A stretch of DNA of 27,295 bases from a virus: UHGV virus genome UHGV-0068847; one strand, 5' to 3'. This document shows positions 6,449 through 20,038 of this stretch, piece by piece; position 1 is the first letter of the stretch, and each line of letters begins with the position of its first letter. The position numbers were made by a program, and so were the translations under genes. The notes beneath the pieces are model-generated. The model was not told where the DNA came from, did no database searches, and saw only the letters and a program-made list of their open reading frames with translations.

Positions 6449-7108
6449 TTAAATGTTTTGAGTGATTTGTACAACTTTTCCGACAATGCGACAGTTACCA
6501 TCAATTTGGATTGGCTTAAATAACGGATTCAGTGGCATTAGGTATGAGTAGGGGCTATCCCAAACTAATTTTTTAACCGTTGCTTCTGATGTCCCATCCA
6601 ATATAGCAACGACTATTTTCCCATATAGATCATCAAGCTGCCCATAATGGGGCTCGACTATAACAATAGAACCTTCTGGTATAGATGGAAGTCCTTGCGG
6701 GTTAGTCATCGACTCACCGCGGACTACTAACCCAAACGCTTCATCCGATACATTTGCAGTTGTTTGAGTCCAGGAAATCACGTCTGTAAGTCTTGAGCAG
6801 GCATAGCTATCCGTCCATAAACCGGCTTGAACTGCCGATATGATCGGTACAGCTACAGGGGGTTTCAAAAAAGGCACGACGCGCGTGTCGTCAATGGCCT
6901 CATCACCGCTTCCATAGAGTATCCACTCTGGTGTTGTTGATAGAGCCTGAGCCAACTGGTGAAGGTTCTCACCATCAGGCTTTGTCGTGCCGTTTTCCCA
7001 TTTTGTAACCGATACACGGCTTACACCAAGCTTTTTAGCCAGTGCTAATTGGGTTATATCCAGCTGGATTCGTCTGGATCTGATGCGGTCTTTCATCTCT
7101 GTTTTCAT
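6449..7108 (-). CDS. cI: CI-like repressor (HTH plus S24/LexA-type peptidase domain)
   Basis: N-terminal HTH (ITQLALAKKLGVSRVSVTKWENG), C-terminal GESM serine motif and downstream Lys; divergent from the cro-like gene across the operator region. Confidence 0.85.
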   Translation of the reverse strand: MKTEMKDRIRSRRIQLDITQLALAKKLGVSRVSVTKWENGTTKPDGENLHQLAQALSTTPEWILYGSGDEAIDDTRVVPFLKPPVAVPIISAVQAGLWTDSYACSRLTDVISWTQTTANVSDEAFGLVVRGESMTNPQGLPSIPEGSIVIVEPHYGQLDDLYGKIVVAILDGTSEATVKKLVWDSPYSYLMPLNPLFKPIQIDGNCRIVGKVVQITQNI

Positions 7109-8330: not shown

Positions 8331-9186
8331 ATTAACCGGCTACGTATGGGATGGTTGCGCAGCGTCGGGCATGAAGTTGTCTAGTGTCGCGATCATGGCT
8401 CGCCTTGCTGATTTCAGCAGCGATGAAGGTGTGTGCTGGCCGTCCATTGAAACTATTGCTCGCCAGCTTGGCGCAGGGCCGAGCACTATCAGAACGGCAA
8501 TCGCAAAGCTTGAAAAAGATGGCTGGCTCACGCGCACACAGCGCCGTAATGGTAACCGTAATGCTTCGAACGTGTACCGCCTGAATGTGGCGAAACTTCA
8601 GGCTGCCGCATTTTCTCAACTGTCAGATTCTGACACGTCAAAATCTGACGCATCAAAATTTGACGCCTCAAAAACTGACCCGTCGAAATCTGGCAAAAAC
8701 GGCGGTTTTGACCCGTCAGAATCTGGCGGGGATCCGTCAGTAAAATCAACACAAGATCCACAAGTAACTTCAAAACCCTCTTGTCCGGTTGCGGCGCAAC
8801 CCGACCCTGAGATTGTGATTACTGATCAGGCCAGACAGGTTTTGTCTTACCTGAACCAGACAACTGGTTCACGCTATCAGGTATGCAGCACGTCGCTGGA
8901 GAACATTCGTGCCCGTCTGCGGGAACGGTTCACTGTTGATGATCTGTGCCTTGTGGTGGATTACAAAAACGCTGATTGGCGTGATAGCGAGCAGGCTCAA
9001 TATCTCCGTCCGGCAACTCTGTTTATTCCAAAAAACTTCCCTGGTTACCTGCAAAGCGCGACCAAATGGTCTGCCGCTGGGCGACCTGAGCGCGTTAACG
9101 GTAAATGGACGGCTAACTCAGCCAGCCGCGCAAGCTTCCAAAATGTTGACTACTCACTTCCAGAACATTCGGGGTTCCGCTCATGA
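8320..9186 (+). CDS. Replication initiator-like protein (N-terminal HTH, phage conserved C-terminal domain)
   Basis: N-terminal HTH-like region; central low-complexity S/D/K repeat encoded by the iterons; position after cII-like as in lambda O. Confidence 0.55.
   Translation: MSTKLTGYVWDGCAASGMKLSSVAIMARLADFSSDEGVCWPSIETIARQLGAGPSTIRTAIAKLEKDGWLTRTQRRNGNRNASNVYRLNVAKLQAAAFSQLSDSDTSKSDASKFDASKTDPSKSGKNGGFDPSESGGDPSVKSTQDPQVTSKPSCPVAAQPDPEIVITDQARQVLSYLNQTTGSRYQVCSTSLENIRARLRERFTVDDLCLVVDYKNADWRDSEQAQYLRPATLFIPKNFPGYLQSATKWSAAGRPERVNGKWTANSASRASFQNVDYSLPEHSGFRS
8621..8723. repeat. Tandem 15-bp iterons (putative replication origin) inside the initiator gene
   Basis: TGACACGTCAAAATC, TGACGCATCAAAATT, TGACGCCTCAAAAAC, TGACCCGTCGAAATC in tandem at 8631-8690, with degenerate copies at 8621-8630 and 8709-8723. 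Confidence 0.55.
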
Positions 9187-10064
9187 TGCCAAATAAATAT
9201 TGCCAGTCGCTGGCAGAACTGCGCAGTAAACCAGCTCACGAATTGAAAGAAGTTGGCGATCAGTGGCGAACACCGGATCTGCTGTTTTGGGGGATCAACG
9301 CGCTATTTGGTCCATTAGTTCTGGATTTGTTTGCTGACGACGACAACGCGAAATGCCCGGCATGGTACACCGCCGAAGATAACGCGCTGACCCAGGACTG
9401 GTCTGAACGTCTGGCAGAACTGGGTGGCGCAGGTTATGGCAACCCACCGTATAGCCGTTCGCAGTACCACGAGAAACAGGCGATCACTGGTATGACGCAC
9501 ATCATGAAGTACGCAGCAGCCCAGTGCGAGAAGGGCGGTCGCTATGTATTCCTGATAAAAGCCGCGCCAAGTGAAACGTGGTGGCCGGAAGATGCCGATC
9601 ACATTGTATTCATTCGCGGGCGCATTGGGTTCGATCTGCCAGTGTGGTTTGTACCTGCTGACGAAAAACAGAAGCCCACCAGCGCGTTTTTTGCCGGTGC
9701 CATAGCTGTATTCGATAAGTCATGGCGTGGTGAGCGGTTCAGCTATATCAACCGCACAGAACTGGAGGCAAAAGGTCGGGCATTTATGGCGCTGGCTCAA
9801 TTCGCTGTTGGCAAAGAGCCGACAATTGCAATGCGAGCACCCCAGGAGCCAGTCATACCATCGGAAACTGAGTCACGTATCTGGCCTCTCGAGGTTGGTC
9901 TGGTGTTTAACCAGGTGGAAGGCGTTGACGTATTGAGTGAGGCTCAGCAGAACAAGCTGAAAGCCAACATCAATCAACTCTGGCTGGAACGAACGGCCAC
10001 CAGCGAAATTATCACAATTGCGCGTGGTCTTGTCGGCAGCATGCAGGGGGTAACCCATGCGTGA
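9183..10064 (+). CDS. Dam-family DNA N6-adenine methyltransferase
   Basis: NPPY catalytic motif (GYGNPPYSRS) and phage Dam-like N-terminal region (WRTPDLLFWGINALFGP). Confidence 0.8.
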   Translation: MMPNKYCQSLAELRSKPAHELKEVGDQWRTPDLLFWGINALFGPLVLDLFADDDNAKCPAWYTAEDNALTQDWSERLAELGGAGYGNPPYSRSQYHEKQAITGMTHIMKYAAAQCEKGGRYVFLIKAAPSETWWPEDADHIVFIRGRIGFDLPVWFVPADEKQKPTSAFFAGAIAVFDKSWRGERFSYINRTELEAKGRAFMALAQFAVGKEPTIAMRAPQEPVIPSETESRIWPLEVGLVFNQVEGVDVLSEAQQNKLKANINQLWLERTATSEIITIARGLVGSMQGVTHA

Positions 10065-11946
10065 GATTATCGTTGATAACTTTGCTGGTGGCGGTGGCGC
10101 ATCAACGGGTATTGAACTGGCGATCGGACGCAGCGTGGATATTGCGATCAACCACGACGAAAACGCCATTGCGATGCACAAGACGAATCACCCGGAAACA
10201 CTGCATTACTGCGAATCCGTATTTGACGTGGATCCGGTAGCCGCCACCGGAGGTAATCCTGTCGGCCTGGCATGGTTTAGCCCGGACTGCCGACACTTCT
10301 CGAAGGCAAAAGGCGCCAAGCCTGTGAAAAAAGAGATACGCGGTCTGGCCTGGATTGTTCTGCGTTGGGCACTGGCAAAGCGACCGCGCGTGATGATGCT
10401 GGAGAACGTGGAAGAGTTCAAAACGTGGGGACCGCTATTACCAGCTGAGCCACAAAATCCCAATCTGGTGGGGGATGATTTGGCTGCATTTGTTGGCCCA
10501 GTTATACCGCCTTATGATGCGCAGCGTCCGGATCCGGCACGAGCTGGTGAAACATTTGAGGCATTTGTCGGCATGCTATCCACTGGTATTCCTGCTGATC
10601 ACCCGGCACTGGCTGAGGTTTGTGAGTTTCTGTCTATCGAAAGAGGTAGCGAGCAGGCGCAAAAGCTGGTGGATGGGCTTGGATATGATGTTGATTATCG
10701 CGAACTACGCGCGTGTGATTACGGCGCGCCGACGATCCGCAAACGCTTCTTCATGGTTATGCGCTGCGATGGCTGCCCAATCCAGTGGCCTGCAGTTACC
10801 CATGGGGATCCTAAGTCTCTGGAGGTGCAGAGCGGCAGGCTGATGCCATGGCGTACCGCTGCGGAATGTATCGACTGGAATGTTCCGGCCCTGTCCATCT
10901 TCGACCGCAAAAAAACGCTGGCGGAGAACACGCTGAAGCGGATCGCGCGCGGCATACAGCGCTTTGTTATCGAAAGTGCGTCGCCGTTTATCGTGAAGTG
11001 CAATCACACCAGCACCAAAACGAGTTACGACTGTTTCCGTGGTCAGAAGCTGGACGAGCCTTTGCAAACTATTACTAAAACCCACGGTTACGCGTTAGCT
11101 GTTCCACACCTGACAAAATTCCGCACTGGGGCAACCGGGCAGCCCGTTACCGAACCTGTCCCGACGGTAACCGCTGGCACGTCAAAACGCCCGGGTGGGA
11201 ATGGGCATGCACTCGGGATTGTTGAGGCTGCACTGACGCCATTCCTGGCGGGTAATGGTGGTAGTGAATACCAGGCTAAACCGCGCCCGCTGGATAAACC
11301 TGCTCATACCATTATGAAGCAATCCCGCGCCTGTCTTGTTGCGCCAGTGATAGCCCGCCAGTTTGGGGCCAGCGTCGGCCACCGGGCAGACGAACCGAGC
11401 GCCACAATTACAGCTGGTGGTGGAGGTAAATCACAATTGGTGGGCGCGTTTCTGGCTAAACACTACGGCGGTAACTATACGGGACCGGGTGTCAGTATGG
11501 ATGAACCCGCACACTCAGTGACCACTGTCGATCATCATGCGGTTGTTGCCTCTCATTTGGTGAAACTGCGTGGAACATGCCGCGACGGGCAACGTCTTGA
11601 TGTGCCCATGCCAACAATCACCTCTGGTGGCCAACACGTGGGTGAGGTACGCACATTTCTCGAGACGTATTGCGGGGAAAGTGACGATGAATGGCTGGTA
11701 ACGATCGATGGGGTTAAATACCAGATCGTTGATATCGGAATGCGCATGTTGCAGCCGCATGAACTCTACAAAGCGCAGGGCTTCCCGGATGGATACGTTA
11801 TTGATCAGGACTACCGTGGAAATCGCTATGCAAAAGATAAGCAGGTAGCCCGCTGTGGTAATGCGGTACCACCACCATTCGCCAGGGCGCTGGTGGAGGC
11901 AAATCTTCCGGAACTGTGTGCAGTGCAACATCAGGAGGTGGCATGA
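10057..11946 (+). CDS. DNA cytosine-5 methyltransferase (629 aa)
   Basis: Motif I FAGGGG, ENV, QxRxR-like IRKRFF, GNAV; catalytic Cys lies in SPDCRHFS instead of canonical PCQ; start overlaps the Dam stop. Confidence 0.8.
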   Translation: MREIIVDNFAGGGGASTGIELAIGRSVDIAINHDENAIAMHKTNHPETLHYCESVFDVDPVAATGGNPVGLAWFSPDCRHFSKAKGAKPVKKEIRGLAWIVLRWALAKRPRVMMLENVEEFKTWGPLLPAEPQNPNLVGDDLAAFVGPVIPPYDAQRPDPARAGETFEAFVGMLSTGIPADHPALAEVCEFLSIERGSEQAQKLVDGLGYDVDYRELRACDYGAPTIRKRFFMVMRCDGCPIQWPAVTHGDPKSLEVQSGRLMPWRTAAECIDWNVPALSIFDRKKTLAENTLKRIARGIQRFVIESASPFIVKCNHTSTKTSYDCFRGQKLDEPLQTITKTHGYALAVPHLTKFRTGATGQPVTEPVPTVTAGTSKRPGGNGHALGIVEAALTPFLAGNGGSEYQAKPRPLDKPAHTIMKQSRACLVAPVIARQFGASVGHRADEPSATITAGGGGKSQLVGAFLAKHYGGNYTGPGVSMDEPAHSVTTVDHHAVVASHLVKLRGTCRDGQRLDVPMPTITSGGQHVGEVRTFLETYCGESDDEWLVTIDGVKYQIVDIGMRMLQPHELYKAQGFPDGYVIDQDYRGNRYAKDKQVARCGNAVPPPFARALVEANLPELCAVQHQEVA

Positions 11947-14021: not shown

Positions 14022-14732
14022 GTGTATGGAGCGCAAAGAAGCATGAATCAACAAGACCTGAATTTTGTAAGAATAGAATTGCGCCGCGCGCTACCTGACC
14101 TCTCTGGGGGAACAAAAGGGCAGCTTGAGGCTTTCAGTGAACACCCACCAGCAGACAAAAATGCCACCCCGCGCCGTGGAATTCATCTCGTCGAACTCGA
14201 AGGAGAGAAGGGGCCACGCTTTGTTAACTCGCTTTCCGCGCCACTGTATGTGCTGGAAACACGCAGCCGCCGCAGGCCAATGCCGCCGATAAAAGATGCG
14301 GAATTTGAGTCCGCGCCGTGGCGTAGGGCAGTGTCCGCGCTTAGTGGATACCAGCAGGCCTGGTTGCGGTACTGCTACGGTTTTGACCTTAGCTATAAGC
14401 ACCAGGTGATGATGTGTGAATACGTCTGGAAAACTTATCAGAAATGCCTGGGTGAAAACTCGCTTCAGGAGCGTGTAGTAAAGAAACTGATAGGTCTGGT
14501 ATGGCTGGCAGGGCAGGAAATTGCCGCAAACAGAAATAATGAAACCTATAAAGACTATGCTGGTGCAGCGTTGGCCCGCATGGTTAGCGTTGACCGTTCG
14601 ACATGGTTGCGTGTCTATTCATGGCACTGGGCTGGGTTAAAGGCCGCTTTTACCCAGCTTGATGAATCTGCGTTGGCAATGGCTCTTGAATACTATGAGG
14701 AAGAAGAAGCCCTCAAAGTGGCAGAAATGTGA
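14022..14732 (+). CDS. Putative late-gene antiterminator (QuuQ/Q-like)
   Basis: Positional: last nin-region gene, after DUF968, followed by a tR'-like terminator and the lysis cassette; no motif-level confirmation. Confidence 0.5.
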   Translation: MYGAQRSMNQQDLNFVRIELRRALPDLSGGTKGQLEAFSEHPPADKNATPRRGIHLVELEGEKGPRFVNSLSAPLYVLETRSRRRPMPPIKDAEFESAPWRRAVSALSGYQQAWLRYCYGFDLSYKHQVMMCEYVWKTYQKCLGENSLQERVVKKLIGLVWLAGQEIAANRNNETYKDYAGAALARMVSVDRSTWLRVYSWHWAGLKAAFTQLDESALAMALEYYEEEEALKVAEM

Positions 14733-14825
14733 AGTAAATTTCACTATCTCCTTCAAACGCGCTTGCAAAATGCAACAAAATAAGCCATATTTTAAGCATA
14801 TTTGATATGTTGCCAAAATTTTATA

Positions 14826-14853
14826 AACCCGCCGATGAGCGGGTTTTATTATT
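14826..14853 (+). terminator. Rho-independent terminator (tR'-like) downstream of the Q-like gene
   Basis: AAACCCGC-cgatga-GCGGGTTTTATTATT hairpin plus U-tract. Confidence 0.55.
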
Positions 14854-14948
14854 GTTGTTGGATGAAACTGAGGGGAAAGGTTAAAATTTGCCCTTCACCC
14901 GCCGGGTGATGTGCACATGAGTGCTATAAACTCCACATGGAGAGCATC

Positions 14949-15242
14949 ATGGTTAATTTAGATAGTCACCATTTTCATACCCTACGTTTTATTCATTCTT
15001 GTTATTTGTCTAATGAAGGTATGAATACTTTTGTGCAATTGTTATTCGTATCCAATCATCAGGATCCTGACGGCACATACCATGGGGTATTTCCAGATAC
15101 CAAGGTTGGTATAAGTATGACTGAATACCTATACCAAAAAACTTGCTCATCATCAGAGAAGGCTAAGTCATTAAAACCAACCTGGTTGCATTGGCGACAA
15201 CAGGAAGCTCTGGAGCTAAAACGAAATCCCTTTGATATTTAA
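14949..15242 (+). CDS. Moron ORF of unknown function (97 aa from ATG 14949; ORF track starts at 14937)
   Basis: GGAG 7 nt upstream of ATG 14949; own terminator immediately downstream; region looks AT-rich by eye; sits between tR' and the holin. Confidence 0.4.
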   Translation: MVNLDSHHFHTLRFIHSCYLSNEGMNTFVQLLFVSNHQDPDGTYHGVFPDTKVGISMTEYLYQKTCSSSEKAKSLKPTWLHWRQQEALELKRNPFDI

Positions 15243-15256
15243 ATTTGAGATTTACC

Positions 15257-15287
15257 AGCCCTGGCATTCGCCGGGGCTTTTTTATTT
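15257..15287 (+). terminator. Rho-independent terminator after the moron ORF
   Basis: AGCCCTGGC-attc-GCCGGGGCT hairpin followed by TTTTTTATTT. Confidence 0.55.
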
Positions 15288-15391
15288 CAGGCTCACGGGA
15301 ATCATCCACGATACATATTGTTGATAAATCCAGCCCGTGAAGCCTGACCCTTTCATCACACAGCGCCATCCGAATAATCGGAGGTAGGGCT

Positions 15392-15670
15392 ATGACCAGA
15401 ATGAGCACCATTTACAGCAGACTTTCATATGGATCAGGAACCACGCTTGCCGGCTGCGGTGTATCAGCGAAGGCATATGCCGAAACAGCTAAAACAGCAA
15501 AAGAGGTGTCCTGGATGTTGGCCGACAGAATTGCAGGGTTAAGCCTGAGCGACTGGGCAATTATTGTCGGTATCGCATGCACAGTTATCACTTGTGCAGT
15601 GAACTGGTATTTCCGCTGGAAAGAACGGGAGGATCGGCGCAATGGCTATGCCACCAAAGCTGAAGAATAA
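15392..15670 (+). CDS. Class II holin (phage 21 S-like pinholin candidate)
   Basis: C-terminal TM plus YFRWKEREDRR resembling phage 21 S; M-T-R-M dual-start motif; GGAGGT RBS. Confidence 0.7.
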   Translation: MTRMSTIYSRLSYGSGTTLAGCGVSAKAYAETAKTAKEVSWMLADRIAGLSLSDWAIIVGIACTVITCAVNWYFRWKEREDRRNGYATKAEE

Positions 15671-16190
15671 ACTGAGCGCAGCGGTCGTTGGTTTGATTCT
15701 TGCGGGGGCTTCCGCGCCCGTGATTCTCGATCAGTTTCTGGATGAGAAAGAGGGTAACAGCCTGACAGCATATCGCGACGGCGGCGGAATCTGGACTATT
15801 TGCCGTGGCGCCACGATGGTTGATGGTAAGCCAGTAGTTCAGGGCATGAAGCTGTCTGCTGAGAAATGCGCCAAGGTGAACGCCATAGAACGCGACAAGG
15901 CGCTGGCGTGGGTTGAGCGAAATATCAAAGTACCACTGACCGAACCACAGAAAGCGGGTATTGCGTCATTTTGTCCTTACAACATCGGCCCCGGAAAATG
16001 TTTCCCTTCTACGTTCTATAAGCGCATTAACGCTGGTGACCGTAAAGGCGCCTGTGAAGCGATCCGCTGGTGGATTAAAGACGGCGGCCGCGACTGTCGT
16101 CTGACCAAAGGCCAGAAAAATGGGTGCTATGGGCAGGTCGAGCGGCGCGATCAAGAAAGTGCGCTGACGTGCTGGGGGATTGACCGGTGA
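15642..16190 (+). CDS. SAR endolysin (T4-lysozyme-type muramidase with N-terminal signal-arrest-release segment)
   Basis: Hydrophobic N-terminus [19 protein letters not shown] followed by E-x8-D-x5-T catalytic spacing ([16 protein letters not shown]); overlaps the holin 3' end. Confidence 0.85.
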
Positions 16191-16651
16191 GTCGACTAAC
16201 AAACATCATCATTACTGTGATCATCTGCATAATCTTATCTCTAGGCTGGGCCGTTAACCACTACCGCGACAACGCGATCACCTACAAAGACCAACGCAAC
16301 AAAGCAACTGAAAAGCTCAGCCTAGCTAACGTTACTATCACCGACATGCAAACCCGCCAGCGCGATGTCGCTGCACTGGATGCCAAATATACGAAGGAGT
16401 TAGCTGATGCGAAAAACACCATTAGCGGTCTACGTGGCGATGTTGAGTCTGGGCGCAAGCAGCTGCGCGTTGCAGCCGCCTGCAATAAAGTGCGTCAAAC
16501 CACCGACACCGCCAGCATGGATGATGCAACCGGCCCCAGACTTACTGACACCGCTCAACGGGATTATTTCACTCTCAGAGAGCGAATAGAAACTGTCACC
16601 AAGCAACTTGCCGGATTACAAGAATATGTCAGTGCGCAGAATTTAAAATGA
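16187..16651 (+). CDS. Rz: Rz i-spanin
   Basis: N-terminal TM ([28 protein letters not shown]) highly similar to lambda Rz; GTG start overlapping the endolysin stop. Confidence 0.8.
16407..16589 (+). CDS. Rz1: Rz1 o-spanin lipoprotein, embedded in Rz in the +1 frame
   Basis: Signal peptide ending in a Cys lipobox-like LGASSC, then a proline-rich segment; nested entirely within Rz. Confidence 0.7.
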
Positions 16652-16711
16652 CTTGTCACCTATTTCGCTGTCTGATTAGTTATTCAATATTAGTTGGCAT
16701 AGCGTTAGTAA

Positions 16712-16957
16712 TTAACTGCAATGGCTATGACTGCAATTAATTATGGCATCAGCTTTGCTTGATGAGGATGATGGATATTTTTCGGATAAGAATTTCTGTA
16801 TGTCTTCAACAGCTTCGATGCTGACTCTAATATTTGTATGGCCATTGTTTTTTAAATAATTAACTGCTTCATCTATAAGGTTGTTTTCTGATAGAAATTT
16901 GATAACAATGGCAAAGTTATCAACGCCGGTTTCGGTTAAAAGTTCACAGTTAGGCAT
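16712..16957 (-). CDS. Cargo ORF of unknown function (81 aa) with C-terminal CSHSHCS tail
   Basis: GGAG 8 nt upstream of ATG; apparently AT-rich segment between Rz and cos; last gene of a three-ORF minus-strand cluster. Confidence 0.4.
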   Translation of the reverse strand: MPNCELLTETGVDNFAIVIKFLSENNLIDEAVNYLKNNGHTNIRVSIEAVEDIQKFLSEKYPSSSSSKADAIINCSHSHCS

Positions 16958-16962
16958 GGTTG

Positions 16963-17211
16963 TTACTCCAGTGATGTAAATGAGATTTTATTTTGGATTG
17001 TTTTTTTATCAGCGTGGGTGATATGTTTGTATGATTTTTGAGGTTGCCTAAACACAAAAGTTGTATTCAAAGTAATCGAGCTAATTAGGGTGGGCCGCTG
17101 GTTTGGTAAGGTCAGGGGATTAACTCTTATTCTATTACCTTTCTGCGTTGCCATAACCATGGGCAGACCCATCGTAATGGTAGTTTTTGAATAGGCCGCT
17201 AATGAATTCAT
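16963..17211 (-). CDS. Possible small ORF (82 aa) in cargo operon
   Basis: ATGA-coupled to the upstream ORF but no clear RBS; composition is only weakly protein-like. Confidence 0.25.
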   Translation of the reverse strand: MNSLAAYSKTTITMGLPMVMATQKGNRIRVNPLTLPNQRPTLISSITLNTTFVFRQPQKSYKHITHADKKTIQNKISFTSLE

Positions 17212-17456
17212 GGCGCATGGTTTTGGGAGGCGATTTGCAAGCAGGCATCTCGGACTTGTATCGCAAGACGAAGCCCTTCCTGAAATCTTGCTGATGCGTT
17301 GGGATCGTTTGCTGAATTTAGATAGACATTAAAAAGCTGCATGATGGTAACGCTATATGCTTGCTTAATAGCATTTTCAGTAATTGTTTCGTCCATCGAG
17401 AATCTCCTCGGTAGCATAGATGACAGGTTTACTTCCGTCTTACCATAGGTCATCAA
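17208..17456 (-). CDS. Cargo ORF of unknown function (82 aa)
   Basis: First ORF of the minus-strand cluster; TTG/ATG start pair; plausible composition. Confidence 0.35.
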   Translation of the reverse strand: MMTYGKTEVNLSSMLPRRFSMDETITENAIKQAYSVTIMQLFNVYLNSANDPNASARFQEGLRLAIQVRDACLQIASQNHAP

Positions 17457-17482
17457 TGGGATTACTTTAATAGGAAAGAAGC

Positions 17483-17767
17483 ATGAGCAAGCCGGACTGG
17501 GAGGTCATCGGGGCGGCGTACTGTGCCGGAGTGATGGCCCTCCGTGAAATTACATCGCAGCACGACATTAGTGAAGGGACAATGCAGAACCATACTAACT
17601 ACTGAGTGAGTGAAACAGACAATATCATCGGTAAGGATGATGGCAATAGCCCCCGACTTACTGACGCCGCTAAACGGGATTATTTCACCCTCAGAGAGCG
17701 AATCAGCACCATCACCGGGCAAGTGAGTTACTTACAGGATTACATCAGGCAGCAATGTTTGAAGTGA
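17483..17767 (+). pseudogene. Chimeric remnant: 40-codon HTH-like fragment, in-frame TGA, then 53-codon Rz C-terminal homolog
   Basis: 17483..17605 encodes MSKPDWEVIGAAYCAGVMALREITSQHDISEGTMQNHTNY after an AGGA RBS; 17606..17767 continues in the same frame and encodes ...[39 protein letters not shown], a divergent second copy of the Rz 3' end. Confidence 0.5.
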
Positions 17768-17801
17768 ATGGCCGCTAGACTTAGCCAGCCATTTTAAAGA
17801 G

Positions 17802-18227
17802 TTAACCAACGGTTAATGTGGAAAGCAAATGCGAAGTTTCCCCAGAGCAGTTAACAGTGGTTTCGTTGTAAGGGAATTCACCCGTATACTCGCTATTTGC
17901 AGGGGGAGTCATTTTGTTAATCAATGCAGCTTCTGCGCGCACCCGATCATCTTTTCCAGTAATAGTAGCGACGGAATAGCAGAGAGTCTCACCGACCATT
18001 AAATGTTCATTCCAGTCACCCAGCCTGTCGTGCGTGGCCACACGGGATCGGACGTTCGATGATTCGCCGATATAAATCAACTTACGAATTTCGAGTGTTG
18101 TCTTGGAGCCATTAGTAACAGCTTTGCATGCGTATACGCAGTAGATTCCTGACTGATCTGGAACGCCACTCTTATTGGCTTCACGCCAATACCCATCAAA
18201 TTGCAGATTAATTGTTTTACCAGTCAT
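17802..18227 (-). CDS. Standalone GIY-YIG nuclease-domain protein (141 aa)
   Basis: SGIYCVY ... LIYIGESSNVRSRVATH ... RVRAEAALINKMTPPAN matches the GIY / YIG / Arg / Glu...Asn motif series. Confidence 0.55.
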   Translation of the reverse strand: MTGKTINLQFDGYWREANKSGVPDQSGIYCVYACKAVTNGSKTTLEIRKLIYIGESSNVRSRVATHDRLGDWNEHLMVGETLCYSVATITGKDDRVRAEAALINKMTPPANSEYTGEFPYNETTVNCSGETSHLLSTLTVG

Positions 18228-18647
18228 TTATAGCTTCTCCTAATTACGCCAACAATAGCGCAATAGGGAAGTGGGGAGATAAATCCAAGTTACAATGAGC
18301 AATCAGTATTTCAATGACTTATGTCATGATTTTCTTATTAATTATAGAAAATATGGGGTTTTTCCATGATGACTGCCATCGTGATAGCAGGTCGCTCAGC
18401 CATTGAACGGTAGGTTGTTTGTTACACAGGCTGCCATTACAGAGGCATTCACTGAGCGCCTGAGATAATGCACAATAACTCCCCCTGTACTGAAGGAAAT
18501 GTGGAAGAGAAAAATTCCATAGGGAGCAGACTAATCTGTAGGGATTGTCTCGATATCATTAGCGCGGTCATCCGGAAAGAATGGTTGATATGTACTGATT
18601 AGTCAAAATCATGCAGAATAGTCACAGTATAAATATGCGAGGCTATC

Positions 18648-19151
18648 ATGAATTATATTTACCAATTAGTGATCTCTGTAGTAGCGGGTGGACTTGGTGC
18701 ATGGATTGCAATGTTATTTGCTTTAAAACGTTTTTATAGTGAAAAGTGGTGGGAGAAGAGAGCAGGGGCCCTTATTGAATTAACTAATGCAATTTATCAG
18801 GTAAAGGTTCTACAAGATTATTATTCTGATTTGAAAGAGTATCAACGATTAGGTCCAGATGAATATCCAAACTTTATCAAATTGAGTGCTGAGAAACTTA
18901 GTAAATTACAAATCTCAGCTGCTGAGGCAAAAGATTTAATAGTAAAATATAGCAATATCGGCCCCTTGCTGGTTACTGAATCAGTATCAAAACTTCTAAC
19001 TGATTATTTGAAACGAGAAGATAAGGTTGACTATGAAGTTAATTTTCAGGGGTTAGATACAGATGATGCTGAAGAACATCTCTTATCGTTGACAAATAAA
19101 CTTCTGGAAGATTTAGTTAAAGAATCAAAAAGCGTTCTTAAAGCAAAGTAA
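18648..19151 (+). CDS. Membrane-anchored protein of unknown function (N-terminal TM plus helical domain)
   Basis: N-terminal hydrophobic helix LVISVVAGGLGAWIAMLFAL; GAGG RBS; TATAAAT -10-like element about 20 nt upstream; coding region looks strongly AT-rich. Confidence 0.5.
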   Translation: MNYIYQLVISVVAGGLGAWIAMLFALKRFYSEKWWEKRAGALIELTNAIYQVKVLQDYYSDLKEYQRLGPDEYPNFIKLSAEKLSKLQISAAEAKDLIVKYSNIGPLLVTESVSKLLTDYLKREDKVDYEVNFQGLDTDDAEEHLLSLTNKLLEDLVKESKSVLKAK

Positions 19152-19289
19152 TCTAGAAGAAAACCTAAGGGCACTAAATGTGATGTGCCCATTTAATTGT
19201 GCATACGCTAAGAGAATCATTATAGGGATAGCTTATAAATCGAATTGTGAAATTGATATTTATTATCGTTTGCGGGTCCTTTCCAGCGA

Positions 19290-19480
19290 TCCGCTCCGTT
19301 ACGGGGCGGCGACCGCGCAGATTCTCGCTATTTATGAAAATTTTCAGGCATTTGCCGTTTCCGTTCTTCTTCTCGCTAATTCATTGTTTTAACTGTAAAC
19401 ACCCCCTGAAAAGAAAGGAAATGATAAGCCTTAAAAACGGCTAAATAGCCAGAGGGCGTTTCCTTTCTCTGTTTTTGTGC
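19290..19480. other. cos site (cosN plus cosB) of lambda-type packaging
   Basis: GGGCGGCGACCG at ~19304-19315 against lambda cosN GGGCGGCGACCT; downstream CTCGCTATTTATGAAAATTTTC and TTTCCGTTCTTCTTC closely match lambda cosB; directly upstream of Nu1. Confidence 0.8.
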
Positions 19481-19492
19481 ATGGAGTGAGCT

Positions 19493-20038
19493 ATGGAGGT
19501 CAACAAAAAGCGTCTTTCTGAAATATTTGGGGTCAGCGTGCGAACCATTCAGAACTGGCAGGATCAGGGAATGCCTGTAGCACGTGGCGGCGGAAAAGGT
19601 AATGAGGTCCTCTATGAATCTTCCGCGGCTATTGAATGGTATTCCGCACGCGACGCGGCGATTGAGAATGAGAAATTACGGAAGGAGGTGGAAGACCTTC
19701 GTCTTGCATCGGAATCCGACCTTCAGCCTGGTACGATTGACTATGAGCGTCATCGCCTCACCCGGGCACAGGCTGACGCCCAGGAACTAAAAAATGCAAA
19801 AGATTCCGCTGAGGTGGTGGAAACCGCATTCTGCACGTTCGTGCTGTCGCGGATGGCCGGAGAAGTAGCCAGCATTCTTGATGGAGTTGCTCTGTCTGTT
19901 CAGCGGCGCTTCCCGGAGCTGGAAAACCGACATATTGATTTCCTCAAGAAGGACATCATTAAAGCCATGAACAAAGCAGCTGCGCTGGATGAAATAATAC
20001 CGGGGTTGCTGAGTGAATATATCGAACAGTCAGGTTAA
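19493..20038 (+). CDS. nu1: Terminase small subunit
   Basis: Near-identical to lambda Nu1 over its length (MEVNKK...EYIEQSG). Confidence 0.95.
   Translation: MEVNKKRLSEIFGVSVRTIQNWQDQGMPVARGGGKGNEVLYESSAAIEWYSARDAAIENEKLRKEVEDLRLASESDLQPGTIDYERHRLTRAQADAQELKNAKDSAEVVETAFCTFVLSRMAGEVASILDGVALSVQRRFPELENRHIDFLKKDIIKAMNKAAALDEIIPGLLSEYIEQSG

What the first reader, a model, noticed from the sequence alone, without database searches (positions are those of the whole stretch)
16652..17460. Three-ORF minus-strand cargo operon immediately after Rz
Three ~82-aa ORFs (17208..17456, 16963..17211, 16712..16957) run antiparallel to the lysis genes in an apparently AT-rich stretch; two are ATGA-coupled and the last has a good RBS. 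Small coupled ORFs in a moron slot could be a toxin-antitoxin or immunity-type module, but none resembles a family I recognise.
Basis: partly seen in the sequence, partly recalled or inferred. Interest (0 to 1): 0.5.

Follow-up and report, generated by a model that had tools for sequence, protein, structure and literature searches.

The report
One mobile small gene, not an operon
The supposed three-gene operon after the phage lysis genes is one small, portable prophage cargo gene of unknown function (62 aa), a lineage-specific orphan gene carried on an AT-rich insertion, and a middle reading frame that is probably not a gene; it is ordinary prophage cargo, not a toxin-antitoxin module.

Summary
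The three minus-strand ORFs, the ATGA overlap, the ORF3 Shine-Dalgarno site and the low GC are all present. The window is a lambdoid, phi80-like prophage of the Citrobacter freundii complex.

- **ORF1** is a real gene, but of 62 aa (17208-17396), not 82. pN/pS is 0.27 in frame. It is predicted to be a two-helix hairpin (pLDDT 89). It travels as a roughly 380-bp cassette found between the lysis and packaging genes of many different prophages, always antisense to them and usually alone. In every other lineage the cassette ends in a GC hairpin.
- **AT-rich segment.** In the window lineage that hairpin is replaced by a 496-bp, 35.5% GC segment (16652-17147).
- **ORF3** (81 aa) lies on this segment. 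It is an orphan with a good RBS and low divergence.
- **ORF2** is ORF1's 3' tail fused to spacer DNA. It has no RBS. The equivalent frame is broken or truncated in the other lineages, its substitutions are mostly non-synonymous, and PGAP does not call it.

No family, defence or structure library matches any of the three ORFs. The toxin-antitoxin idea fails the conserved-pair test. Function is unknown; the best guess is a prophage-expressed cytosolic binding protein.

The parts
17208..17396 (-). ORF1 as corrected: a 62-aa protein gene (MDETITENAIKQ...QNHAP), predicted two-helix hairpin. It belongs to a small unannotated family of 62-66-aa proteins.
   Evidence: Homologues are 62 aa and 82-96% identical. 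pN/pS is 0.27 in frame, against 1.05 and 1.68 off frame. AF2 gives pLDDT 89 with helices 7-26 and 34-59. A profile search of 1.8 billion representatives finds only 10 hits, seven of them further small proteins of 62-66 aa.
17404..17407 (-). Shine-Dalgarno GGAG, 7 nt upstream of the ORF1 ATG.
   Evidence: Read from the sequence. GGA is invariant in 9 loci; the last G varies in three (L012 A, L013/L014 T).
17442..17470 (-). Candidate sigma-70 promoter of ORF1: TTAAAG, 17 nt, TATGGT. It matches 7 of 12 positions here and 9 of 12 (TTAAAA-17-TATAGT) in relatives.
   Evidence: The scan tool calls the equivalent site in L003 and L013. The window version is below that tool's threshold. The block is 88% conserved across lineages. 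It is a consensus match only, not shown to function.
17148..17523 (-). The conserved ORF1 cassette: about 40 nt of a terS 5' end, the intergenic/promoter region, the CDS and a 60-nt 3' tail. Homology ends sharply at 17147/17148 in every locus.
   Evidence: blastn of 20 loci, alignment A3 and segment identities of 0.83, 0.88, 0.92 and 0.84, dropping to 0.39 beyond 17148.
16652..17147 (-). A 496-bp AT-rich segment (35.5% GC) specific to this lineage. It sits where other lineages have a GC hairpin (terminator-like) directly after GATGGCAA.
   Evidence: Composition. No DNA match in phages, plasmids or E. coli genomes. Hairpins of varying sequence occupy the same position in all other lineages.
16712..16957 (-). 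ORF3: an 81-aa orphan protein gene, probably real. It is acidic, predicted helical, and ends in CSHSHCS.
   Evidence: One 90%-identity cluster only, from the Citrobacter freundii complex plus a Hafnia MAG. GGAG lies 8 nt before the ATG. GC1>GC2>GC3. It has 3 substitutions in 246 nt, against 11 plus 3 inserted bases in the adjacent 249 nt, in the diverged copy. PGAP and other gene callers call it. Single-sequence AF2 gives only pLDDT 62.
16985..17012 (-). Promoter-like site CTGATA, 16 nt, TAAAAT, 28 nt upstream of the ORF3 ATG and inside ORF2.
   Evidence: It matches 9 of 12 positions, but the number of such sites in the region is no more than shuffles give.
16963..17211 (-). ORF2: an 82-codon frame made of ORF1's 3' tail (codons 1-21) plus AT-rich spacer. 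Most likely not a gene.
   Evidence: No SD site. The equivalent frame elsewhere is 18, 29 or 35 aa, or has an ATA start. In the diverged copy the start is ATG to TTG, there are +1 and +2 indels in C-runs, and 7 codons changed the amino acid against 1 synonymous change. GC1<GC2,GC3, pI 10.8, 12 Thr. Not called in 4 of 5 loci, and the PGAP locus tags of ORF3 and ORF1 are consecutive. Only one protein cluster.
17483..17577 (+). Remnant of a small terminase gene (first 32 codons, phrog_1206 type). This is the gene that normally lies divergent from ORF1.
   Evidence: PHROG 1.2e-11. It is 81-83% identical to the terS 5' ends of L001 and L013. Full 200-aa terS genes sit next to ORF1 in L001-4, L013, L014, L016, L025 and L026.
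17635..17767 (+). Remnant of the 3' end of a second Rz/Rz1 gene, joined to the terS remnant. It is a scar of a module swap.
   Evidence: Pfam Phage_lysis 1.6e-14. It is 87% identical to 16519-16587. The same junction is present in L012.
16187..16651 (+). Intact Rz spanin gene (Rz1 is embedded at 16407-16589). It is the convergent neighbour of ORF3.
   Evidence: Pfam Phage_lysis 1.4e-41 and phrog_13 2.2e-67.

Best explanation
The locus is a layered cargo ('moron') slot between the lysis cassette and the packaging genes of a lambdoid Citrobacter prophage. It is not a three-gene operon.

(1) ORF1 is a genuine 62-aa cytosolic protein that folds as a two-helix hairpin. It moves between prophages as a self-contained cassette of about 380 bp: a weak sigma-70-like promoter, an SD site, the CDS, a 60-nt tail and, in other lineages, a GC hairpin. 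It is always antisense to the late operon.

(2) In the window's lineage the hairpin has been replaced by a 496-bp AT-rich segment. That segment brings a second, orphan gene (ORF3, 81 aa) with its own SD site and a promoter-like site.

(3) ORF2 is an accidental open frame across ORF1's 3' tail and the spacer.

Inferred, not shown: both genes are transcribed from the repressed prophage, as lambda bor is, and are damped by convergent Q-antiterminated late transcription during lytic growth. Because the hairpin is missing, ORF1 transcripts probably read through into ORF3. The ORF1 product probably acts by binding another protein, plausibly as a dimer, in a role that benefits the lysogen such as exclusion of or interference with other phages. 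Its target is unknown.
For: - **Context.** The window carries CI, Q, holin, endolysin, Rz, Nu1 and A genes, and phi80 homology starts at about 19304.
- **ORF1 is coding.** Homologues are 62 aa, pN/pS is 0.27 in frame against more than 1 off frame, and AF2 gives pLDDT 89.
- **The cassette has sharp ends.** They recur in prophages with Mu-F/portal_3, Terminase_2, Terminase_4/HNH, Nu1/gpA and sheath-type neighbours, always on the strand opposite the lysis and packaging genes. A 58%-identical relative (P0013) keeps the same position and orientation.
- **A hairpin ends the cassette elsewhere.** It has a conserved position but variable sequence (CCGCC/GGCGG, GCCACC/GGTGGC, GCCACTAG/CTAGTGGC) in all other lineages, though degenerate in L017-L020, and is absent only from the window lineage.
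- **ORF2 does not behave as a gene.**
- **ORF3 is more constrained than ORF2.** Fisher p = 0.011 counting the indels and 0.054 for substitutions alone. It also has an SD site.
Against: - There are no expression data, and the ORF1 promoter-like site in the window matches only 7 of 12 positions.
- ORF2 stays open (83 codons) in the diverged copy despite 11 substitutions and two indels that sum to +3. This would happen in roughly 1 in 5 neutral cases: 0.60 for the substitutions times about one third for the indel phase.
- ORF3 has no sequence diversity beyond 3 substitutions (2 non-synonymous, 1 synonymous). A stop-free run of its length arises in 16-24% of shuffles, and its AF2 model is poor.
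- The function of either protein has no support from any homology or fold search.
Confidence: 0.62

Rival explanations
1. ORF1 and ORF3 form a new two-gene functional module. Loss of ORF1's hairpin made a bicistronic transcript, and the two products work together, for example as effector and partner.
For: ORF3 is never seen without ORF1 directly upstream in the same orientation. No terminator-like hairpin lies between them in the window. The pair is carried intact into at least four different downstream contexts.
Against: All ORF3 copies trace to one insertion event, being 95-100% identical over the whole block, so co-occurrence is not independent evidence. ORF1 functions alone elsewhere. ORF3 has its own SD site and promoter-like site.
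Confidence: 0.2
2. Only ORF1 is a gene. The whole 496-bp AT-rich segment, including ORF3, is non-coding debris of a past recombination event, and its open frames are by-products of a strand that is poor in T and G.
For: A stop-free run of at least 80 codons occurs in 16-24% of shuffles. ORF3 has no homologue outside one cluster among 5.8 billion proteins and none in 50,697 phage records. AF2 gives pLDDT 62. The region is full of recombination scars.
Against: ORF3 has a well-spaced GGAG, a coding-like GC1>GC2>GC3 pattern and balanced composition. Its divergence is about 4-fold lower than that of the adjoining spacer. Two long frames together are rare in shuffles, at 1.2%. Several gene callers, including PGAP, call it.
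Confidence: 0.18
3. One reading: three translationally coupled genes forming a toxin-antitoxin or immunity-type operon.
For: There is an ATGA overlap between ORF1 and ORF2, and ORF2's stop lies 5 nt before the ORF3 ATG. All three frames remain open in the diverged copy L029.
Against: There is no conserved pairing. ORF1 is solo in most lineages. The first 21 codons of ORF2 are ORF1's 3' tail, whose frame is broken in L010-L016. ORF2's substitutions are mainly non-synonymous: 7 changed codons against 1 synonymous change. No TA, defence or immunity family matches. ORF1's fold is not an HTH, RHH or AbrB antitoxin fold.
Confidence: 0.06

Closest known systems
Phage 'morons' as defined for lambdoid phages. 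The definition is quoted in the epsilon34 genome paper (PMC2629481). The textbook example in this very slot is lambda bor, downstream of Rz and antisense to the late operon; that example is from my own knowledge.
   Same: An extra, non-essential small gene lies between the lysis and packaging modules. It is present in some related phages and absent or different in others. It is oriented against the late operon and has its own promoter-like and terminator-like elements. Its base composition is lower in GC than the flanks.
   Different: There is no sequence or family relation to Bor or any named moron product. ORF1 has no signal peptide or lipobox and is predicted to be a soluble helical hairpin. 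Expression from the prophage is untested.
Type II toxin-antitoxin modules
   Same: Small adjacent co-oriented ORFs with a 4-nt ATGA overlap, carried on a mobile element.
   Different: The ORFs are not conserved as a pair, the middle ORF is probably not coding, there is no family match, and there is no DNA-binding antitoxin fold.
Small two-helix hairpin proteins that act as dimers or oligomers, for example ColE1 Rop (63 aa) or the helical phage 'sponge' protein T4 Vs.4/Acb2. This is a recalled resemblance and a weak Foldseek row, a lead only.
   Same: Similar size and a helix-loop-helix hairpin. Vs.4 appears among the non-significant Foldseek rows.
   Different: There is no significant structural or sequence match: all Foldseek E-values exceed 0.7, and the PDB profile searches give only partial-stretch matches, with E-values above 1 for A2 and down to 0.002 for A5, none on a single matched stretch. 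A bare helical hairpin matches many unrelated folds.

Membership tests
Type II toxin-antitoxin module | Two adjacent co-transcribed genes that co-occur as a pair across unrelated genomes | tested here: not met
   ORF1 occurs without ORF2 or ORF3 in L001-4, L010-L028, with unrelated or convergent neighbours. ORF3 occurs in one lineage only.
Type II toxin-antitoxin module | At least one partner belongs to a recognised toxin or antitoxin family | tested here: not met
   No match in Pfam, PHROGs, NCBIfam or PADLOC for any of the three ORFs, apart from chance-level rows.
Type II toxin-antitoxin module | The antitoxin has a DNA-binding fold (HTH, RHH, AbrB or Phd-like) | tested here: not met
   The ORF1 model is a plain two-helix hairpin with no significant PDB match. 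The ORF3 model is of low confidence.
Type II toxin-antitoxin module | One product is toxic and the partner neutralises it | not testable with these tools
   Needs expression and rescue assays.
Moron (independently expressed cargo gene in a phage operon) | Present at a site where related phages lack it or carry something else | tested here: met
   The slot between Rz and the packaging genes holds different genes in each lineage. ORF1 is absent from all 50,697 phage records and 5,426 E. coli genomes.
Moron (independently expressed cargo gene in a phage operon) | Own promoter and terminator flanking the gene | tested here: inconclusive
   Relatives have a 9-of-12 promoter-like site and a GC hairpin. 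The window copy has a 7-of-12 site and no hairpin. These are consensus matches only.
Moron (independently expressed cargo gene in a phage operon) | Base composition unlike the surrounding phage genes | tested here: met
   35.5% GC for the insert and 45.5% for the ORF1 cassette, against 52% for the lysis and terminase genes.
Moron (independently expressed cargo gene in a phage operon) | Transcribed in the lysogen independently of the late operon | not testable with these tools
   Needs RNA-seq or TSS mapping of a Citrobacter lysogen.
Bor-like lipoprotein (the canonical lambda gene in this slot) | Bor family sequence with a lipoprotein signal peptide and lipobox cysteine | tested here: not met
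   No Pfam or NCBIfam match. The N-termini MDETITEN... and MPNCELLTE... have no hydrophobic signal segment.

The most novel reading that the evidence does not exclude
ORF1 may found an undescribed family of 62-66-aa helical-hairpin prophage proteins. The family spreads as a promoter-gene-hairpin cassette and keeps one fixed address, the lysis/packaging junction antisense to the late operon, even at 58% identity. Such positional fidelity could reflect a specific role. Examples would be a prophage-expressed inhibitor of incoming phages or of a host defence, or a modulator of late transcription entering terS. In the same reading, ORF2 would be a newly born coupled ORF created when the terminator was replaced.
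Probability: 0.15. Interest if true: 0.45.

Novelty: new member of a known kind. Interest (0 to 1): 0.2.

Why it matters
It matters mainly as a correction. A tidy-looking 'three coupled small ORFs' pattern dissolves once related prophages are compared, which warns against calling toxin-antitoxin modules from ORF geometry alone.

The positive result is modest. ORF1 defines a small, unannotated protein family. It has no Pfam, PHROG or NCBIfam entry, and is absent from all deposited phage genomes and from the complete E. coli genomes searched. It has a confident fold prediction, clear purifying selection and a strikingly constant position and orientation in Citrobacter, Klebsiella, Enterobacter and Buttiauxella prophages. 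That makes it a reasonable, cheap candidate for screens of prophage-encoded exclusion or anti-defence factors.

The locus also records cleanly how moron slots grow: a terminator is replaced by AT-rich DNA, with terS'/'Rz scars alongside.

Tried and rejected
- **Family searches.** Pfam, PHROGs, NCBIfam and PADLOC gave nothing for ORF1-3 beyond chance-level rows.
- **PDB by sequence profile.** Only weak partial-stretch matches: E above 1 for A2, best 0.002 (RBL4) and 0.028 (lysozyme) for A5, none on a single matched stretch.
- **Foldseek.** The ORF1 model against PDB and BFVD, and the ORF3 model against PDB, gave no match with E below 0.7. A helical hairpin matches non-specifically.
- **DNA searches of the block.** Phage, plasmid and E. 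coli collections, near and distant modes: no match.
- **tblastn.** ORF1 against phages and plasmids, and ORF3 against phages: none.
- **GTDB species representatives.** Only one ORF1 locus.
- **Rfam.** Nothing at E up to 1 over 16300-19500.
- **RNA structure in ORF1's conserved 3' tail.** No compensatory pairs and z = -1.8. The ORF2 region folds no better than shuffles, z = -1.5.
- **Repeats.** Only short chance-level pairs, plus a 12-bp AT-rich inverted repeat at the end of ORF3.
- **ORF3 versus the 77-aa gene that fills the same slot in L001.** No similarity.
- **The 141-aa genes next to ORF1 in the window and in L029.** Unrelated.
- **Literature search by protein accession.** Nothing.
- **A small hydrophobic type-I-toxin-like peptide from the ATGA-coupled frame.** Considered and rejected, because its sequence and frame are not conserved.

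Full report
**Context.** The window is a lambdoid prophage. It carries a CI-type repressor (6449-7108, minus strand), replication and methylase genes, and antiterminator Q (14022-14732). Next come the holin (15392-15670), the endolysin (15642-16190) and Rz (16187-16651), with Rz1 embedded. After a 2.65-kb gap come phi80-like packaging and head genes. phi80 position 1 (cos) aligns at about window 19304, and Nu1 is 19493-20038. Identical proteins are annotated in Citrobacter braakii, C. freundii and relatives. Locus L007, from an NCBI assembly, is 99.85% identical over 16101-19400.

**Observation.** The three minus-strand ORFs exist at the stated coordinates.
- ORF1's TGA overlaps ORF2's ATG as ATGA at 17208-17211.
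- ORF2's TAA lies 5 nt before the ORF3 ATG.
- ORF3 has a GGAG 8 nt upstream of its ATG.
- GC is 0.345-0.372 over 16600-17199, against 0.52 in the lysis and terminase genes.
- The minus strand here is 39% A and only 14% G. Stop-free runs of at least 80 codons therefore appear in 16-24% of shuffles of the 560-nt ORF2+ORF3 stretch, and two such runs appear in 1.2%. ORF length alone is weak evidence.

**ORF1 is a real gene, but of 62 aa.**
- A search of 5.8 billion proteins returned 11 clusters at 82-96% identity. Nine are 62 aa long and start at MDETIT/MGEKIT, which is the ATG at 17396 preceded by GGAG at 17404-17407.
- The 5' extension to 17456 is interrupted by 1-nt indels in L001, L003, L013 and L017.
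- Across ten loci, pN/pS is 0.27 in the ORF1 frame and 1.05 and 1.68 in the other two frames.
- With a 10-sequence alignment, AlphaFold2 gives mean pLDDT 89 and two helices, 7-26 and 34-59.
- An exhaustive profile search of 1.84 billion cluster representatives found only ten hits. Seven are further small proteins of 62-66 aa, 34-58% identical to the window protein.
- No Pfam, PHROG, NCBIfam, PADLOC or PDB match exists.
- Foldseek against PDB and BFVD gives nothing below E = 0.7.

**ORF1 travels as a cassette.** blastn of the window against 20 fetched loci shows one shared block, window 17148 to about 17523-17577. In every locus its 3' edge lies at 17147/17148.
- Mean pairwise identity among six lineages is 0.83 for the terS 5' piece, 0.88 for the intergenic/promoter region, 0.92 for the CDS and 0.84 for the 60-nt 3' tail. 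It drops to 0.39 beyond 17148.
- The block sits between the lysis genes and the packaging genes of prophages with quite different head modules: Mu-F/portal_3 with a 200-aa terS, Terminase_2, Terminase_4+HNH, Nu1/gpA, and even a sheath-type contig. It is always on the strand opposite to those genes.
- The 58%-identical relative P0013 keeps the same address and orientation in a gpA-type phage.
- In L010, L012, L013, L014 and L017 the next gene downstream is convergent and unrelated. In L001-L004 it is an unrelated 77-aa gene. ORF1 therefore has no conserved partner.
- Directly after the conserved ...GATGGCAA and an A-run, every non-window lineage has a GC hairpin, though it is degenerate in L017-L020. 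Its sequence differs between lineages: CCGCC-CGGA-GGCGG, GCCACC-AGAA-GGTGGC, GCCACTAG...CTAGTGGC and GCCAYTGG...CCAGTGGC.
- The scan tool calls this hairpin terminator-like in L003 and L013, with the T-run on the late-operon strand.
- A promoter-like TTAAAA-17-TATAGT (L003; ATGAAA-18-TATAGT in L013) precedes ORF1. The window's version, TTAAAG 17470-17465 and TATGGT 17447-17442, matches only 7 of 12 positions and is not called by the tool.

**The window lineage replaced the hairpin with AT-rich DNA.** In the window, L005-L009 and L029-L032 the sequence after GGCAAC is instead a 496-bp, 35.5% GC segment, 16652-17147, that runs to the Rz stop codon. It has no DNA match in 50,697 phage records, 72,556 plasmids or 5,426 E. 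coli genomes. It contains ORF3 and codons 22-82 of ORF2.

**ORF3 is probably a real, lineage-specific orphan gene.**
- It forms a single protein cluster, from the Citrobacter freundii complex plus a Hafnia MAG. It has no tblastn hit in phage genomes.
- In its favour are a well-placed SD site, a promoter-like CTGATA-16-TAAAAT at 17012-16985, a GC1>GC2>GC3 pattern and an ordinary acidic composition. Several pipelines, including PGAP, call it.
- In the one diverged copy (L029-L032) it has only 3 substitutions in 246 nt: V18I, S64P and one synonymous change. ORF2's 249 nt have 11 substitutions plus 3 inserted bases. Fisher p is 0.011 counting the indels and 0.054 for substitutions alone.
- Against it are a single-sequence AF2 model of only pLDDT 62, no fold match and too little diversity for a selection test.

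**ORF2 is probably not a gene.**
- Its first 21 codons are ORF1's conserved 3' tail. In other lineages the ATGA-coupled frame gives 29 aa (L001-4), 18 aa (L010-12) or 35 aa (L013-20, in two different sequences because of 1- and 2-nt indels). In L025-28 it starts with ATA.
- It has no SD site.
- Its composition is odd: pI 10.8, 12 Thr, 2 acidic residues, and GC1 below GC2 and GC3.
- In L029 the start codon is TTG, and two C-run indels (+1 and +2, 24 nt apart) rewrite nine residues. Outside that stretch, 7 codons changed the amino acid against 1 synonymous change, while 23% of random changes would be synonymous.
- Four of five gene-call sets skip it, and the PGAP locus tags of ORF3 and ORF1 are consecutive (ACTM7X_16830 and 16835).
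- The one point in its favour is that the frame is still open in L029. Random substitutions alone would leave it open 60% of the time, and an indel sum divisible by three has about a one-in-three chance.

**Scars around the block.** Upstream of ORF1, on the plus strand, lie two remnants.
- The first is the opening 32 codons of a phrog_1206-type terS (17483-17577; PHROG 1.2e-11; 81-83% identical to the intact terS of L001 and L013).
- The second, after about 57 nt, is the last third of a second Rz/Rz1 (17635-17767; Pfam 1.6e-14; 87% identical to 16519-16587).

The window is therefore a recombinant. Its left part is lysis genes, cargo, ORF1 and terS'. That part was joined to 'Rz, further morons, cos and Nu1 of a phi80-like phage. 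L012 shares this junction, whereas L005, L010 and L017 have other joins within about 10 nt of 17523.

**Mechanism (inferred).**
- ORF1 and ORF3 point against the late operon, which is silent in a lysogen. The expected pattern is therefore expression from the prophage and suppression by convergent Q-antiterminated transcription during lytic growth, as for lambda bor (my own knowledge of bor).
- With the hairpin gone, ORF1 transcripts should run on into ORF3, making a de facto bicistronic message, and onward antisense into Rz.
- ORF1 is soluble, with no signal or transmembrane segment, and is a bare helical hairpin. It most likely works by binding another protein, plausibly as a dimer.
- None of this has been tested, and no homology points to a target.

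**Comparison with known systems.**
- The locus meets the comparative and compositional criteria of a moron (definition quoted in PMC2629481). Promoter and terminator evidence is only by consensus, and expression is untested.
- It fails three testable criteria of a type II toxin-antitoxin module: a conserved pair, family membership and an antitoxin fold.
- It is unrelated to Bor.

**Verdict.** This is an ordinary prophage cargo slot. The finding is partly right about location and orientation and wrong about the operon and toxin-antitoxin reading. The only mildly new item is the unannotated 62-aa family and its portable cassette.

Noticed in passing
window 17483-17767 (+): A truncated small-terminase 5' end (32 codons) is fused through about 57 nt to a second, partial Rz/Rz1 3' end. 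It is a recombination scar showing that the lysis and cargo part and the phi80-like packaging part come from different phages. The same junction is in IMG/VR contig L012.
   Followed up: yes
window 17802-18227 (-) and 18648-19151 (+): There are two more cargo genes in an AT-rich stretch (33-42% GC) between the Rz remnant and cos. One is a 141-aa protein with weak GIY-YIG nuclease signatures (Pfam E = 0.0019; PADLOC candidate PDC-S14 1e-4). The other is a 167-aa protein with an N-terminal hydrophobic segment (phrog_17948, 6.7e-21, function unknown). They could be a defence or exclusion pair.
   Followed up: partly
window 14733-15391: An AT-rich gap (39-43% GC) between antiterminator Q and the holin is the slot where Stx phages carry stx. 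It holds a 101-aa ORF (14937-15242) with no Pfam match and no tRNA genes.
   Followed up: partly
L001-L004, L010-L017, L025-L028, directly after the ORF1 3' tail: A GC-rich hairpin with a conserved position but at least four different stem sequences is preceded by an A-run. The scan tool scores it as a terminator for the late-operon strand. It may act in both directions and mark a hotspot where new cargo is added.
   Followed up: partly
window 16709-16743: A 12-bp AT-rich inverted repeat spans the ORF3 stop codon. It also encodes the palindrome-like C-terminus CSHSHCS. No T-run follows, so it is not a canonical terminator.
   Followed up: no
window 9183-11946 (+): A Dam-type N6-adenine methylase (293 aa) is directly followed by a 629-aa protein with an N-terminal C5-cytosine methylase domain. 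These are two adjacent phage-borne methylases, probably anti-restriction.
   Followed up: no
L029 6363-7352 (-): A related prophage that carries the same ORF1-ORF3 block has a RelA/SpoT-domain gene just upstream of its Q gene. It may be a toxSAS-like or alarmone-related cargo gene.
   Followed up: no
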